DNA of 64,000 bases from Stegostoma tigrinum (Eukaryota). Numbering within the stretch: position 1 is the first letter of the stretch; every line of letters starts with the position of its first letter. A program made the translations under genes and the position numbers. The notes under the pieces were generated by a model that was given only the letters and a program-made list of their open reading frames with translations, did no database searches and had not been told where the DNA came from. Positions 4,261-63,711 of the stretch are shown piece after piece. Where the stretch lies: contig NC_081372.1 in NCBI RefSeq assembly GCF_030684315.1, positions 51,308,987 through 51,372,986 of the forward strand. Direction: 5' to 3'.

Positions 4261-7032
4261 TTACTGGTCATTCTTCAACAACTTCGACCATGCTGTATGT
4301 GGTGGAAGACATTTGATTGAAAGCAGACATAGTTTAAATACTCAATAATAAACCCACACAATATTGATAATTTTTAAAAATTTGCACATACCATCAAAGT
4401 CAAGTTTGCCATCACTGTTCTTGTCCCACTCCCTGATGAGTTCATGAACTTCCTCCTCTGTAACATGCTCCCCAGAAGTCTTGAATGTAAAATACAGCTC
4501 AGAACATTCGATGAAGCCGTCAGCATTGCTAGAGTCATCAAGAAAAGTATGAAAGTCCCCAATCCAGCAATGTTATCTACCTTACCAAAATAGAAGTTGA
4601 GAAAAGATCATATCCATCTAATTTCACTTTCTTTCTGTCTGGAAGTTTACATTATTTAATCTCATCAAGTAATCCAATTTAAAAACTGGCGTACAACAAA
4701 TCTAGATATCATGCACAAACACATGTGGAAATAGCTTCATAAACCTCACATTTGAACTCACCTTTTTCATCCAAAAATGATACATTTCCCACACAATGTC
4801 TCAAATTTCTCAAGACCTGAATTCAATAGTGTGCCCTCTGCTCTGAAAGCAATTACAAATAATTTGTCATTATCACCTTCGATTATGTTCAATTGGAAAT
4901 GGCTTCCCTTTCATTCCAAAGATAAAATTGAATCACACTTTCTGCTCTTCCACAATTGTGTTCGTGACCGTTTTGTTTTCTGAAATCTTCTGTTGATATT
5001 CTCTACTTATGTTCTCCATCGCGTTTTACGTGGATAAGTGTGTTGCTGACAACGACTGCATTGTTGTCCATGCCTAATTGCACTTGAATGGAGTTGCTTG
5101 TTCAGTAATTTCAGAGTGCAGTTACAAATCAGACAGCGTTCCACTGGTCTGGATATATATTCAGGCCAGCAAGGTAAGGATGGCAGATTGTCTTCCTTGA
5201 AGGAGACAAGTGAACCACATAGGTTTTCACAACAACCTCTCAGACTTTTCACTATCATCAACGACATCAGTTTTATGCTGCAGATGTATTGATTGAGTTT
5301 TCTATTTCACTAGCTCACCGGATGAGATTTGAAAGTTTGTTCTTGGAGCATCAGCAGGATCCACTGGCTCACTCGTCTGGGACATTTCCATTATGCTACT
5401 GTCTCCCTGAAGTGAAAACATGCTGTCTATCCACATTTTCAAAACATCTGTGAGTATTGCAACTATCTATGGATCACTGTTTAGTCTTTTTTGTTGAAGG
5501 GAAAATAGTCTCAACTGTTAATACTTTCCTGATGTGTGAAGCTGAGGATTTTTAGTCTCAACCTGGTAAATCCTCAAAGAACTGTCTCCAGGCAACTCTT
5601 ATATCTTTTCGTATAAGATCATGAAAGGTGCACCATGTCACATGCAATGTAAATGAAACAAATTTCCATACATTTTTGCCAGTTGCGAGTCCCGCTAGAA
5701 ATGTTCTAGGAACAAATGTTTCCACACTTCTACCTCACTTTGGATATGAAGAAGTTATATTGAGCTGAAAACACACTTTTTTTTTCTTCTCTAGATAGAT
5801 GGTGTTAAAGCGAGTGACATTAATGATTCTCATTATTATTTCATATTTTCAGCTTCTGAAGTATTTTGTATAATTGATATACGTGCTTGCTACTTTGGTT
5901 TATTTACATGAAGCAAAAGCTAAATTCACCTTTGTGTCAACATATCAGGTGGCTGCTATTTCATCAGAGAGAGATGATTGGTGGTGACTTCGACCAGAGG
6001 GTCACTGTGACTGAGTTGAGTGTTGAGGGGAGTCATTCACGGTAACCTGAGGTGGTGTAGGAATTAAACCCACACTATTGTTTATGCTCTCCCTTGCAAA
6101 CCAGCTAACCAGGCAACTGGGCTAATCAGCCCCGTACCCTACATTTCCTTGAAGCAGGGATGTTTTTCTGATTGCTTTGCTGATCTTTTAGAAACTTGTC
6201 ACTTTTTCAATACATACAACGGAGAATCAACAAACTCAAAATAGAATTGCTGCGCTATCATGTTTACACCAGTCATGTAGAAGCTTAAACTCACCCATCA
6301 AATACACGAAACGATTCTGCGATGTCTTTGTCAGACTTTCCTTTCACTTCTTCTCTCATCAGCCTCCCCGCCATCTTCACCAAGAACTCTTCAAAATCAA
6401 TGGTGCCGCTACCTAAGACCACACTCAGTTGTAAGCTCTGTCCATTGTTAAACATGAATATTTGTGAACCAAACGATTTTTGAAGTGAAACTGCTAATGT
6501 TTAAGCTGCATGTTACCATTTTTGAGACCAATTGCAATCTGAGATTTGACTATCTTTGGGACACCCAAGATATCAGTCAAACATGAAATGAAGTAAACTG
6601 TTGCGTACTAAATCGTGCAGATATGAAATCATTTACAATTAGATTTAGAATTTTATTTATCATGTGTACTCAAGTACAGTATTACAAGAGTACAGTGAAA
6701 ATGCACAACATTGCCACGCATGTCCCATTTCTGGATCAAAGGTACTTGCGCCCAAAAAATATACGTACAAATTAGTAACTGAAAAAGAGTTAAAAAGTTA
6801 AGCATTACCTTCAGATAGCAAGTAGAAAAATAAAGAATAAAGGTCATAGTTAAGATTACAGTTCTTCTTAATTTAGTCTAGAAAGTAGAACAGCTTTTTT
6901 ACCTCCAGTATTTTTCTTATCTGCTCCAGAAGGAATCGTCGAAGAAATAACTTCACAGAGTAAAATTAGACACAACACAATTTGGATTCTCCTGTACATT
7001 GGAATGATCAAACACACAAACTGGAAGACCAT
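4261..7032 (-). CDS. Putative secreted troponin-C-derived EF-hand protein, copy 2 (intact 4-exon model, 138 aa)
   Basis: Exons 7032-6903, 6412-6295, 4528-4392 and 4292-4261, all GT-AG with phases 1/2/1. Product: [138 protein letters not shown]. The last three exons match TNNC2 exons 4-6 ([39 protein letters not shown] / NADGYID..GEHVTDEEI..DKNNDGRIDFD / EFLKMMEGVQ). TATA at 7201-7195, AATAAA at 3980-3975. Linkage of exon 1 is inferred. Confidence 0.72.
5947..6133 (-). mobile_element. Old tRNA-derived SINE in intron 2
   Basis: The minus strand reads GGGCTGATTAGCCCAGTTG (A box)...GTGGGTTTAATTCC (B box)...CAGGTTACC...GTGACCCTC...CACCACCAATCATCTCTCTCT, resembling a common shark SINE. Copies start near 10164, 15116, 26914, 31586, 36652, 41703, 53512, 58184 and 63249. 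Confidence 0.6.
6640..6868 (-). repeat. Probable interspersed-repeat remnant in intron 1
   Basis: TTAGATTTAGA..TCATGTGTACTCAAGTACAG..GTACAGTGAAAA..GTAGAAAAATAAAGAATAAA..AACATTACAG resembles a shark LINE-tail-like repeat. It is present in every full unit. Recognised from memory only. Confidence 0.35.
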
Positions 7033-7194
7033 TTTGCCAAACACTTCAACGCAGCTGGTAAGAATGTCCCTGTGCTTTCTTTGATTTGTCATTTTAATTG
7101 CCCATGATGCTCTCTGGCTGACATTGACTTGGCCTGCTGCACTGTTCCAAGGAAGGTCAATGTGACAAACTGTGCCTTGTCTGTCAATAAAGCA

Positions 7195-61511: not shown

Positions 61512-63711
61512 TCATGAAATTGTTGTATCACAGTGGGTTGCTGAGGGATGTTGGCTGTTTTTTTGGTCATTCTTCAACAACTTCGACCATTCTGTAAAGG
61601 GTGGAAGACATTTGATTGAAAGCAGACATAGTTTAAATACTCAGTAATAAACCCACACAATATCGCTAATTTTTAAACATTTGCACATACCATCCAAGTC
61701 AAGTTTGCCATCAGTGTTCTTGTCCCACTCCCTGATGAGTTCATGAACTTCCTCCTCTGTAACATGCTCCCCAGCAGCCATGATGGCAATATGCAGCTCA
61801 GAACAATCGATGAAGCCGTCAGCATGGCTAGAGTCATCAAGAAAAGTATGAAAGTCCCCAATCCAGCAATGTTATCTACCTTACCAAAATAGAAGTTGAG
61901 AAAAGATCATATCCATCTAATTTCACTTTCTTTCTGTCTGGAAGTTTACATTATTTAATCTCATCAGGTAATCCAATTTAAAAACTGGCTTATAACAAAT
62001 CTAGATGTCATGCACGAACACATGTGGAAATAGCTTCATAAACCTCACATTTGAACTCACCTGTTTCATCCAAAAATGATACAGTTCGCACACAATGTCT
62101 CAAATTTCTCAAGACCTGAATTCAATAGTGTGCCCTCTGCTCTGAAAGCAATTACAAATAATTTGTCATTATCACCTTGAATTATGTTCAATTGGTAATG
62201 GCTTCCCTTTCATTCCAATGATAATATTGAATCACACTTTGTGCTCTTCCACAATTTTGTTCGTGACAGTTTTGTTTTCTGAAAATCTTCTGTTGATATT
62301 CTCTACTTATGTTCCCCATCGCGTTTTACATGGATAAGTGTGTTGCTGACAACGACTGCATTGTTGTCCATGCCTAATTTGACTTGAATGGAGTTGTTTG
62401 TTCAGTAATTTCAGAGTGCAGTTACAAATCAGACAGCGTTCCACTGGTCTGGATATATATTCAGGCCAGCAAGATAAGGATGGCAGATTGTCTTCCTTGA
62501 AGGAGACAAGTGAACCACATAGGTTTTCACAACAACCTCTCAGACTTTTCACTATCATCAACGACATCAGTTTTATGCTGCAGATGTATTGATTGAGTTT
62601 TCTATTTCACTAGCTCACCGGATGAGATTTGAAAGTTTGTTCTTGGAGCATCAGCAGGATCCACTGGCTCACTCGTCTGGGACATTTCTATTATGCTACT
62701 ATCTCCCTGAAGTGAAAACATGCTGTCTGTCCACATTTTCAAAACATCTGTGAGTATTGCAACTATCTATGGATCACCGTTTAGTCTTCTTTGTTGAAGG
62801 AAAAATACTCTCAACTGTTCATACTTTCCTGCTGTGTGAAGCTGAGGATTTTTAGCCTCAACCTGGTAAATCCTCAAAGAAGTGTCTCCAGGCGACTCTT
62901 ATATCTTTTCGTATAAGATCATGAAAGGTGCACCATGTCACATGCAATGTAAATGAAACAAATTTCAATACATTTTTGCCAGTTGCGAGTCCCGCTGGAA
63001 ATGTTCTAGGAACAAATATTTCCACACTTCTACCTCACTTTGGATATGAAGAAGTGATATTGAGGTGAAAACACAGATTCTTTTTTTCTTCTCTAGATAT
63101 TTGGTGTTAAAGCGAGTGACATCAATGATTCTCATTATTATTTCGTATTTTCAGCTTCTGAAGTATTTTGCATAATTGATATACATGTTTGCTACAATGG
63201 TTTATTTACATGAACCAAAAGGCAAAATCACCTTTGTGTCAACAGATCAGGTGGCTGCTATTTCATTCGAGAGAGATGATTGGTGGTGACTTCGACCAGA
63301 GGGTCACTGTGACTGAGGTGAGTGTTGAGGGGAGTCGTACACGGTCACCTGAGGTGGTGTAGGAATTAAACCCACACTATTGTTTATGCTCTCCCTTGCA
63401 AAGTAGCTAAACAGGCAACTTAGCTAATTGGCCCCGTACCCTACATTTCCTTGAAGCAGGGATGTTTTTCTGATTGCTTTGCTGATCTTTTAGAAACTTG
63501 TTTCTTTTTCAATACATACAACGGAGAATCAACAAACTCAAAATAGAATTGCTGCGCGATCATGTTTATACCAGTCATGGAGAAGGTTAAACTCACCCAT
63601 CCAATACACGAAAGAATTCTGCAATGTCTTTGTCAGACTTTCCTTTCACTTCTTCTCTCCTCTGCCTCGCCATCGTCACCAAGAATTCGTCAAAATCAAT
63701 GGTGCCGCTAC
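61512..63711 (-). CDS. Troponin-C-derived gene copy 13 (leader exon lies beyond the window; stop-loss extension)
   Basis: Exon 63711-63597 reads [39 protein letters not shown]. Exon 61827-61691 follows. Exon 61591-61512 reads [26 protein letters not shown]. Splice sites are canonical. Confidence 0.6.

What the first reader, a model, noticed from the sequence alone, without database searches (positions are those of the whole stretch)
4261..63711. Tandemly amplified family of apparently SECRETED troponin-C-derived EF-hand proteins hidden in a macrosatellite-like array
Seen: each full unit carries, in order on the minus strand, TATAAAA, a 130-nt coding exon, three exons of 115/137/32 coding nt with GT-AG sites and mutually compatible phases (1/2/1), a stop, and AATAAA. 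Established: the last three exons correspond in sequence, length and phase to exons 4-6 of vertebrate TNNC2, a cytosolic thin-filament Ca2+ sensor with no signal peptide that is normally low-copy. Inference: the regulatory N-lobe exons are replaced by a signal-peptide-like leader and there is no KDEL/HDEL (the ends are KNDQ/ENVQ). The product would therefore be a small secreted Ca2+-binding protein, amplified to at least 13 copies here. I know of no described family with this architecture. Mucus, glandular, egg-case, seminal or ampullary secretions are candidate sites; that is speculation.
Basis: partly seen in the sequence, partly recalled or inferred. Interest (0 to 1): 0.93.

Follow-up and report, generated by a model that had tools for sequence, protein, structure and literature searches.

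The report
Possibly secreted troponin C in sharks
In the zebra shark, a copy of the muscle calcium sensor troponin C gained a new first exon stitched together from its own intron and a backwards transposon remnant, lost its regulatory half and multiplied in tandem; the new exon looks like an export signal, so this may be a muscle protein turned into a secreted one, though neither expression nor secretion has been shown.

Summary
The exon structure is real. The window lies in a cluster on G000:C23 (protein hits are named Stegostoma tigrinum). It holds 26 units of leader plus TNNC2 exons 4-6 (14 intact) and 5 decayed copies that keep all or part of exon 3, 0.35-0.6 Mb from the parent TNNC2. The window itself has 9 leaders and 4 intact genes, not 13.

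New here: the leader's origin is traceable. TATA, 5'UTR, ATG and codons 1-18 are an inverted copy of an antisense Penelope-like remnant in parent intron 2. Codons 19-43 and the GT donor come from the same intron 1.3 kb further on. One shared deletion of about 375 bp later removed exon 3. Chiloscyllium plagiosum has the same chimeric leader on exon 3, implying an origin before 66 Mya.

Frame is under selection: 3 frameshift gaps in 382 exon nt against 36 in 1,112 intron nt (P=0.005). The leader has basic, hydrophobic and small-residue regions like a signal peptide. Against: no RNA run could be laid, SignalP was unavailable, and dN/dS does not differ from 1. Secreted-family reading about 58%.

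The parts
6903..7032 (-). Leader exon of intact unit 1 (43 codons, phase 1 donor); TATAAAA at about 7195-7201
   Evidence: equals the N-terminus of XP_059508622.1
4261..6412 (-). Unit 1 exons 4 (6412-6295, 118 nt), 5 (4528-4392) and 6 (4292-4261). With its own exon 6, position 12 of EF4 is Ala; NCBI's model takes the orphan exon 6 instead
1065..1327 (-). Orphan exon 5 + exon 6 module (no leader, no exon 4)
8465..11245 (-). Broken unit: stop in the leader, AA instead of AG at exon 4
13434..16196 (-). Broken unit: 1-nt losses in exons 4 and 5
18884..19146 (-). Orphan exon 5 + exon 6 module
22167..27995 (-). Broken unit: CG instead of AG at exon 4; retroelement in intron 4
23428..26479 (+). About 3-kb Penelope-like retroelement (frameshifted RT-like and GIY-YIG frames) with duplicated target sequence; same kind of element as the old remnant that gave the leader
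   Evidence: (GIY-YIG E 4e-4, just under the Pfam cut-off; no Pfam hit on the RT-like frames)
29898..32668 (-). Intact unit: leader 32668-32539, exon 4 32049-31935, exon 5 30165-30029, exon 6 29929-29898 (137 aa, P0004 type)
32624..33062 (-). Promoter, 5'UTR, ATG and start of the leader: inverted copy of parent intron 2 (L029 3206-3630, 72% identical), antisense to a Penelope-like GIY-YIG remnant
32520..32614 (-). Leader codons 19-43 and GT donor: same-sense copy of parent intron 2 (L029 4511-4605, 75% identical)
34962..37733 (-). Intact unit: leader 37733-37604, exon 4 37114-37000, exon 5 35229-35093, exon 6 34993-34962
40021..42783 (-). Broken unit (frameshifts), higher-order copy of 16196
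45471..45733 (-). Orphan exon 5 + exon 6 module
48754..54593 (-). Broken unit (CG acceptor; Penelope-like insertion at about 50015-53077), higher-order copy of 27995
56496..59266 (-). Intact unit: leader 59266-59137, exon 4 58647-58533, exon 5 56763-56627, exon 6 56527-56496
61560..63711 (-). Exons 4-6 of a unit whose leader lies just beyond the window (equivalent position 64331); stop lost, 153-aa read-through form (XP_059508822.1)
11444..64000 (.). 26.6-kb higher-order duplication (11444-37402 against 38032-64000), 99.3% identical

Best explanation
A carpet-shark gene family born from a duplicate of fast skeletal troponin C and re-addressed to the secretory pathway. SHOWN from sequence: (1) A TNNC2 duplicate underwent a fold-back inverted duplication in intron 2. 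This joined the antisense strand of an old Penelope-like remnant (TATA, 5'UTR, ATG, codons 1-18) to a unique intron stretch 1.3 kb downstream (codons 19-43 and a ready-made phase-1 GT donor). (2) This new first exon spliced in frame to exon 3. (3) One deletion of about 375 bp removed exon 3; phases 1/1 let the leader join exon 4. (4) The two-EF form split into subfamilies A and B and amplified to 26 units, with births and deaths. INFERRED: the leader is a cleavable signal peptide (basic Arg13-15 region, about 11-residue hydrophobic core at 16-26, conserved Val28/Ser30 as -3/-1). The mature ~100-aa product is helix D plus the C-lobe, with no retention signal. From established troponin C biology, sites III/IV are the high-affinity Ca/Mg sites, so outside the cell they would stay filled. 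The protein would then not be a calcium switch but a stable, metal-loaded lobe offering its hydrophobic cleft to a peptide or lipid partner in a bulk secretion. Copy number would supply dose and fast change in the helices would supply variety. Odds: coding and selected about 0.85; exported if coding about 0.7. The binding-scaffold role is my best guess at about half of that. Tissue is unknown; reproductive-tract or skin mucus secretions are guesses.
For: Leader origin: blastn of units to the parent. All 31 family matches to the downstream intron piece lie on C23, and those that include the leader part start at or just after the junction. L031 and 51.244 Mb keep direct and inverted copies side by side. 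tblastn to the in-window element gives E 7e-12 for the parent remnant and 3e-4 for the antisense of a leader. The parent's homologous text has a 2-nt gap, a stop and an Asp in the core, so the open hydrophobic frame is specific to the family. Frame selection with broken copies included: 3 frameshifting gaps in 382 exon nt against 36 in 1,112 intron nt over 26 units, P=0.005, and none in the leader. Neutral simulation gives under 1e-3 for staying intact over half the A-B distance (intact genes were chosen). In A versus B1-B3 pairs the leader differs at 10-15% of sites, against 23-25% in the next intron and 30-33% in exon 4 (Fisher P 0.012 and 0.0008 on counts rounded from it, pairs not independent). 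Best 11-residue hydropathy is 2.75-3.30 in 11 of 12 leaders (2.37 in a splice-broken one), against at most 1.42 anywhere in 3 ordinary TnCs. Loop residues 1, 5, 6 of EF3 and 1, 3, 5, 6 of EF4 are invariant in 8 of 8 genes. The model folds as a TnC C-lobe (pLDDT about 80, rmsd 2.4 A to 4tnc). The same chimeric leader is open in C. plagiosum XP_043542666.1. NCBI lists 'isoform X2' XP_048405884.1, which equals leader + exon 4 + exon 6 of gene A3; from my knowledge of that pipeline, such exon-skipped isoforms come from transcript alignments (indirect).
Against: No transcript or protein was observed, and no signal-peptide predictor could be run. dN/dS over 8 intact genes is 1.16 (EF part), 0.72 (loops), 1.37 (rest) and 0.70 (leader); none differs from 1 (2dlnL 0.7-1.6). 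12 of 26 two-EF units and all 5 four-EF-type copies are broken. A hydrophobic core survives a neutral A-B path 19% of the time. The TATA box already exists in the parent's intron, so it proves nothing by itself, and 2 of 14 upstream regions lost it. The putative 5'UTR has upstream ATGs in 14 of 14 copies examined; in 6 of 14 one is in frame and open and would add 16-20 residues before the leader. The n-region is long (15 aa) with its own hydrophobic block. Low leader divergence could be gene conversion. EF3 has His at position 3 in several B genes; position 12 is Ala in EF4 of unit 1 and in EF3 of one other gene. On the C-half tree the family sits with the Stegostoma and Rhincodon TNNC2, apart from hemiscylliid TNNC2 (96/94). 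That does not fit a simple single origin before the hemiscylliid split unless conversion or long branches intervene.
Confidence: 0.58

Rival explanations
1. Expressed and targeted to the ER but not released: the leader is an uncleaved signal anchor, more likely in copies with the 16-20-residue upstream extension. The EF pair would then be tethered in the ER/Golgi lumen or on the cell surface as a local Ca/Mg-binding module.
For: Long n-region with Arg just before the core; in-frame upstream ATG in 6 of 14 copies, used by NCBI in XP_059508634.1 and XP_048406468.2; AlphaFold draws helix 15-32, at low confidence.
Against: The core is only about 11 residues before an Asp/Glu; the best 19-residue hydropathy is 1.4-2.1; Ser30 is invariant in 9 of 9 aligned leaders, as a cleavage -1 residue would be.
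Confidence: 0.12
2. Once functional, now mostly drifting: the family was selected earlier (or only subfamily A still is), and the B array in this window is a recent segmental expansion whose intact frames reflect youth and gene conversion.
For: 5 of 9 leader units in the window are broken, and broken copies were amplified along with intact ones; B1-B3 introns differ by only 4%; dN/dS is about 1; upstream ATGs.
Against: The frameshift deficit holds with broken copies counted; the exon indels found in intact genes are 3 nt; A and B stayed open across 27% intron divergence; the EF loop ligands are conserved.
Confidence: 0.2
3. A cytosolic truncated troponin C: the leader is only a translation start and N-terminal helix, and the product is an N-lobe-less TnC that binds troponin I through the C-lobe, or buffers Ca/Mg, in some muscle or epithelium.
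For: The C-lobe fold and loops are kept; B copies are 62-68 of 94 identical to the parent C-half.
Against: An exposed Cys-rich hydrophobic N-terminus would be expected to engage the signal recognition particle (general knowledge). The canonical TnC C-half is 80-86 of 94 identical across most sharks and a skate (77 in Heptranchias), whereas A copies fall to 55-58, which is hard to square with keeping a troponin I interface. The promoter is not the muscle promoter.
Confidence: 0.1

Closest known systems
Vertebrate TNNC2 (fast skeletal troponin C); direct parent at G000:C23:51.817-51.823 Mb
   Same: Exons 4-6, their phases, introns (70-73% identical), helix D and the EF3/EF4 lobe.
   Different: No exons 1-3 and so no regulatory N-lobe; new promoter and first exon; 26 units instead of one; dN/dS about 1. 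PMC9825255 (passages) describes two TNNC groups in most vertebrates.
Type III antifreeze protein of zoarcoid fishes, derived from sialic acid synthase
   Same: Duplicate of an intracellular-protein gene; only the C-terminal domain kept; first exon encodes a signal peptide whose homologous region in the parent does not; multigene family with two subfamilies about 55% identical (PMC7737890, passages). This is the closest analogue in how it arose.
   Different: Unrelated fold and function. Here the leader is a chimera made by inversion of antisense transposon DNA onto intron DNA, with a surviving intermediate. Antifreeze secretion and function are established; here they are not. The primary paper (Deng 2010) was not held.
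APOL1 among APOL paralogues; Schistosoma japonicum shared-signal-sequence gene family
   Same: Lineage-specific gain of a signal peptide by a duplicate (PMC8557400, passages); repeat-mediated spread of a promoter plus signal sequence (PMC3434034, abstract).
   Different: Neither involves an EF-hand muscle protein; I did not read how either signal sequence arose.
Secretory-pathway or secreted EF-hand proteins (CREC family such as calumenin, nucleobindin, planthopper salivary NlSEF1)
   Same: EF-hands in the secretory pathway or in a secretion (search listing only).
   Different: Different ancestry: the best structure hits here are troponin C (E 4e-33) ahead of calmodulin (3e-23), and intron homology ties the family to TNNC2.

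Membership tests
Troponin C (TNNC2) | Descent from TNNC2 (exon, intron and sequence homology) | tested here: met
Troponin C (TNNC2) | Four EF-hands with N-helix and regulatory N-lobe | tested here: not met
   Exons 1-3 absent in 26 of 26 two-EF units; shared deletion
Troponin C (TNNC2) | Canonical EF3/EF4 loops | tested here: inconclusive
   Most ligands invariant in 8 of 8; His at EF3 position 3 in 3 of 8; Ala at position 12 in one EF3 and one EF4; a one-residue loop deletion in A3. Binding not measured.
Troponin C (TNNC2) | Binds troponin I on the thin filament in striated muscle | not tested
   No complex prediction run; no expression data
Classically secreted protein | Tripartite n/h/c N-terminal sequence | tested here: met
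   Net +2 to +3 n-region; 11-residue hydropathy 2.75-3.30 in 11 of 12; invariant Ser30. Rule-of-thumb test only.
Classically secreted protein | Signal peptide called by SignalP/Phobius, or cleavage shown | not testable with these tools
   No predictor available; the Atlas feature search on residues 1-43 gave no usable hit
Classically secreted protein | No ER retention signal or second membrane segment | tested here: met
   C-termini
Functional protein-coding gene family | Selection on reading frame | tested here: met
   (P=0.005)
Functional protein-coding gene family | dN/dS different from 1 | tested here: not met
Functional protein-coding gene family | Spliced transcripts | tested here: inconclusive
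   No RNA holder listed; the laid runs behave as genomic DNA; indirect hint from an NCBI exon-skipped isoform
Penelope-like element (source of the leader's 5' half) | GIY-YIG endonuclease downstream of an RT frame; dispersed copies | tested here: inconclusive
   GIY-YIG E 4e-4, under the cut-off, and no Pfam hit on the RT-like frames; remnant matches the element at E 7e-12; 494 first-look candidates, with matches on 6 other contigs among 40 scored. The name 'Penelope-like' is my recall from the architecture.

The most novel reading that the evidence does not exclude
Carpet sharks have an undescribed family of secreted troponin C derivatives, over 66 million years old. Its promoter, start codon and signal peptide were created in one step by a fold-back inversion that fused the antisense strand of a Penelope-like remnant to unique intron DNA. 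Parent, four-EF intermediate and two-EF end product survive side by side, and the products are diversifying metal-loaded binding proteins of an exocrine secretion.
Probability: 0.5. Interest if true: 0.85.

Novelty: new variant of a known kind. Interest (0 to 1): 0.72.

Why it matters
Troponin C is a textbook conserved, low-copy, cytosolic muscle protein. A secreted, amplified offshoot would be a new use of the fold and would point to an unstudied shark secretion. Whatever the function, the locus is an unusually complete record of how a promoter and a signal-peptide-like exon arise from non-coding DNA. The source sequence, the inversion junction, the intermediate and the derived genes can all be aligned base by base. 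One can therefore test directly which changes turn intron text into a working export signal. It also flags more than a dozen NCBI 'troponin C, skeletal muscle-like' models as something other than muscle troponin.

Tried and rejected
Expression: no RNA holder listed; this is no evidence either way. The 4 runs listed cover introns and show unit-to-unit joints; no joint at the predicted splice sites was among the 15 shown (77 more not shown), so I read them as DNA.

Leader borrowed from a secreted gene such as WFDC/WAP (neighbours of TNNC2 in mammals, recalled): rejected. The nearest WAP matches on C23 are 5.4 Mb away and the leader aligns to the parent's intron.

Leader in other species: the word-based searches found only Stegostoma (4 of 4 candidates) or only the query itself. 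HMMER over 1.84 billion representatives found 2 Stegostoma proteins, 1 Chiloscyllium protein and 2 low-complexity chance hits. Four-EF forms could hide in TNNC2 clusters at 50% identity, so absence from whale and epaulette sharks is not shown.

C13:20.37 Mb as parent: rejected; it is 58-59% identical in the N-lobe against 80-83% for the C23 gene. Positive selection: not demonstrated. The parent rows were misframed by one base and discarded; corrected. ESM Atlas gave nothing for the leader and only generic EF-hand clusters for the whole protein. Assembly artefact is unlikely, since the higher-order copies differ at 158 sites.

Literature: no paper on this family. 'Troponin' does not occur in the main text of the zebra shark (PMC10620051) or white-spotted bamboo shark (PMC7677710) genome papers; their supplements were not read and could list the expansion. 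Earlier scan notes: none. No complex prediction was run. C23 51.477-51.815 Mb and the sequence below 51.209 Mb were not read; one search shows at least one more copy near 51.196 Mb.

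
Full report
OBSERVATION. Unit 1 splices at GT-AG sites into an open 138-codon frame. The window is G000:C23:51,308,987-51,372,986 of a 3.2-Gb genome. The leader's only four hits in the word-based search are NCBI models named 'troponin C, skeletal muscle-like [Stegostoma tigrinum]'. 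The count needs correcting: 13 exon-5 modules, 10 exon-4 and 9 leaders lie in the window. Four units are intact (7032, 32668, 37733, 59266), five are broken, three modules are orphan exon 5+6 pairs, and a tenth unit has its leader just outside. Positions 11444-37402 repeat at 38032-64000 with 99.3% identity. Contigs of public runs show the head-to-tail joint (one sample, not independent).

THE CLUSTER. I read 268 kb of C23 (51.209-51.477 Mb, window included) plus three stretches at 51.815-51.852 Mb; the gap between them was not read. There are 26 units with leader and no exon 3, of which 14 have ATG, GT-AG ends and no stop or frameshift (one has lost its stop and reads on to 153 aa) and 12 are broken. 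Three intact genes at 51.41-51.46 Mb form an older subfamily A; the rest, the window included, form B. A and B introns differ by about 0.27 changes per site. Five more copies have a leader and all or part of exon 3 or its flank, and all are decayed. A complete TNNC2 lies at about 51.817-51.823 Mb, 83-95% identical per N-terminal exon to epaulette shark TnC and the best match to mammalian TNNC2. Its introns align along the whole unit at 70-76%, which makes it the parent.

ORIGIN OF THE LEADER (shown). The 440 bp from the promoter to about codon 18 match parent intron 2 (L029 3196-3631) in reverse at 73%. Codons 19-43 and the donor match the same intron at 4511-4605 in sense at 75%, with the GT already in place. 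The downstream piece is unique DNA: all 31 non-self matches are family members on C23. The inverted piece is a repeat remnant. It matches the GIY-YIG frame of a 3-kb element inserted in the window at E 7e-12, and the leader's ATG lies antisense to that frame. Dispersed copies occur on six other contigs. Pfam gives GIY-YIG at E 4e-4, under its cut-off, and nothing for the RT-like frames, so 'Penelope-like' rests on my recall of the architecture. Copies at L031 and 51.244 Mb keep the direct and inverted segments next to each other, the mark of a fold-back duplication. In the parent the homologous text has a 2-nt gap, an Asp in the would-be core and a stop; without an outgroup I cannot say which state is ancestral. 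The five A and B units checked share one deletion of about 375 bp that removed exon 3 (parent about 4730 to 5098), and about 250 bp of intron not found in the parent but shared with the four-EF copy. The order is therefore duplication, inversion, four-EF leader gene, exon 3 loss, amplification.

AGE. Chiloscyllium plagiosum XP_043542666.1 (partial) has the same two-part leader joined to exons 3 and 4. PMC8529718 (passages) puts all carpet shark family splits except whale/zebra shark before the K-Pg boundary, so the exon is older than about 66 My if inherited. No other species appeared among 1.84 billion representatives, but clustering could hide such proteins. The 94-column tree puts the family with the Stegostoma and Rhincodon TNNC2, apart from hemiscylliids (96/94), and supports family monophyly only at 76/83. 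This conflict is unexplained; gene conversion with the parent or long branches are possible causes.

IS IT SELECTED? For frame, yes. Over all 26 units, broken ones included, 3 frameshifting gaps fall in 382 exon nt and 36 in 1,112 intron nt (P=0.005); the leader has none (the heavily decayed copy at 51,243,882 was left out). A neutral simulation gives 8e-4 for an intact gene over half the A-B distance (intact genes were picked). The leader is the most conserved segment in A versus B1-B3 pairs (10-15% different, next intron 23-25%, exon 4 30-33%; 19-22% against B0), which could also be conversion. For amino acids the signal is weak: dN/dS is 0.70 (leader), 0.72 (loops) and 1.37 (rest of the EF part) over 8 genes, none different from 1. 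Calcium-loop residues are largely invariant while helices change. The model is a confident C-lobe (pLDDT about 80) with an unresolved leader and matches chicken TnC best.

IS IT SECRETED? Not shown. The leader has net +2 to +3 charge in its first 15 residues, an 11-residue window of hydropathy 2.75-3.30 in 11 of 12 sequences (ordinary TnC at most 1.42), and an invariant Ser30 with Val28 two before in all but one aligned leader. There is no retention signal. Against this: the n-region is long; upstream ATGs occur in 14 of 14 putative 5'UTRs, with an open in-frame one in 6; and the TATA box predates the gene. No RNA run was listed and the laid runs behave as DNA, which says nothing on expression. 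The only hint is that NCBI lists an exon-5-skipping isoform of gene A3, which in my knowledge needs transcript alignments.

MECHANISM (inferred). After cleavage near residue 30-37 the product is helix D plus EF3/EF4. In troponin C these are the high-affinity Ca/Mg structural sites that grip troponin I in a hydrophobic cleft (established knowledge, recalled). At extracellular or seawater ion levels they would be permanently filled, so the switch role is gone, consistent with loss of the regulatory lobe. The likeliest role is a compact metal-stabilised binder of peptides or lipids in a high-output secretion, with dose from copy number and birth-and-death turnover. Rivals are a membrane-anchored form (0.12), a largely drifting array (0.2) and a cytosolic truncated TnC (0.1).

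COMPARISON AND NOVELTY. It descends from TNNC2 but fails the four-EF test, so it should not be filed as troponin C. In how it arose it resembles type III antifreeze protein from sialic acid synthase (PMC7737890, passages). Looser parallels are APOL1 (PMC8557400, passages) and a Schistosoma family (PMC3434034, abstract). Seven literature searches found no account of it. Two shark genome papers do not mention troponin in their main text (supplements not read), and most subscription papers are outside the library. Verdict: a real, apparently undescribed gene family with a traceable de novo first exon; secretion is probable but unproven. New variant of a known kind; interest 0.72.

Noticed in passing
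window 23428-26479 and about 50015-53077 (+): Two copies of a GC-rich 3-kb Penelope-like element with RT-like and GIY-YIG frames (frameshifted), a 27/48-bp minisatellite at its 5' end and a duplicated target; inserted once, then copied by the higher-order duplication.
   Followed up: partly
window 1065-1327, 18884-19146, 45471-45733: Orphan exon 5+6 modules, about 78% identical to the B copies. NCBI models XP_059508622.1 and XP_059508620.1 use the orphan exon 6, which restores Glu12 of EF4; possible alternative last exon.
   Followed up: partly
window 37604-37625; C23 51383449 and 51260049 units: A second, stronger-looking donor (AG|GTAAGA) 18 nt upstream of the leader's end, also phase 1; NCBI uses it in XP_048405882.1 and XP_048406468.2.
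   Followed up: no
P0019 (XP_048464290.1, whale shark): TNNC2 'isoform X3' begins at a Met inside exon 3, hinting at an alternative first exon or an intron-2 promoter in the parent gene; a possible precursor state of the leader.
   Followed up: no
C23 51.41-51.46 Mb (subfamily A; L023, L026, L027): Subfamily A genes gained Cys just before the EF3 loop (two Cys four apart in A2; Cys before both loops in A3); possible disulfides if secreted.
   Followed up: no
L029 (parent TNNC2), EF3 and helix F: The stretch after EF3 differs a lot among shark TNNC2 orthologues while the rest is nearly fixed.
   Followed up: no
G000:C57:174-278 kb and C23:57.20-57.26 Mb: Tandem arrays of WAP-domain exons (about 15-kb period on C57); another amplified family of probably secreted proteins in this genome.
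   Followed up: no
G000:C23 about 51,196,000 and 51,415,571: A further inverted-leader copy outside the region read, and an inverted exon 5 next to gene A3.
   Followed up: no
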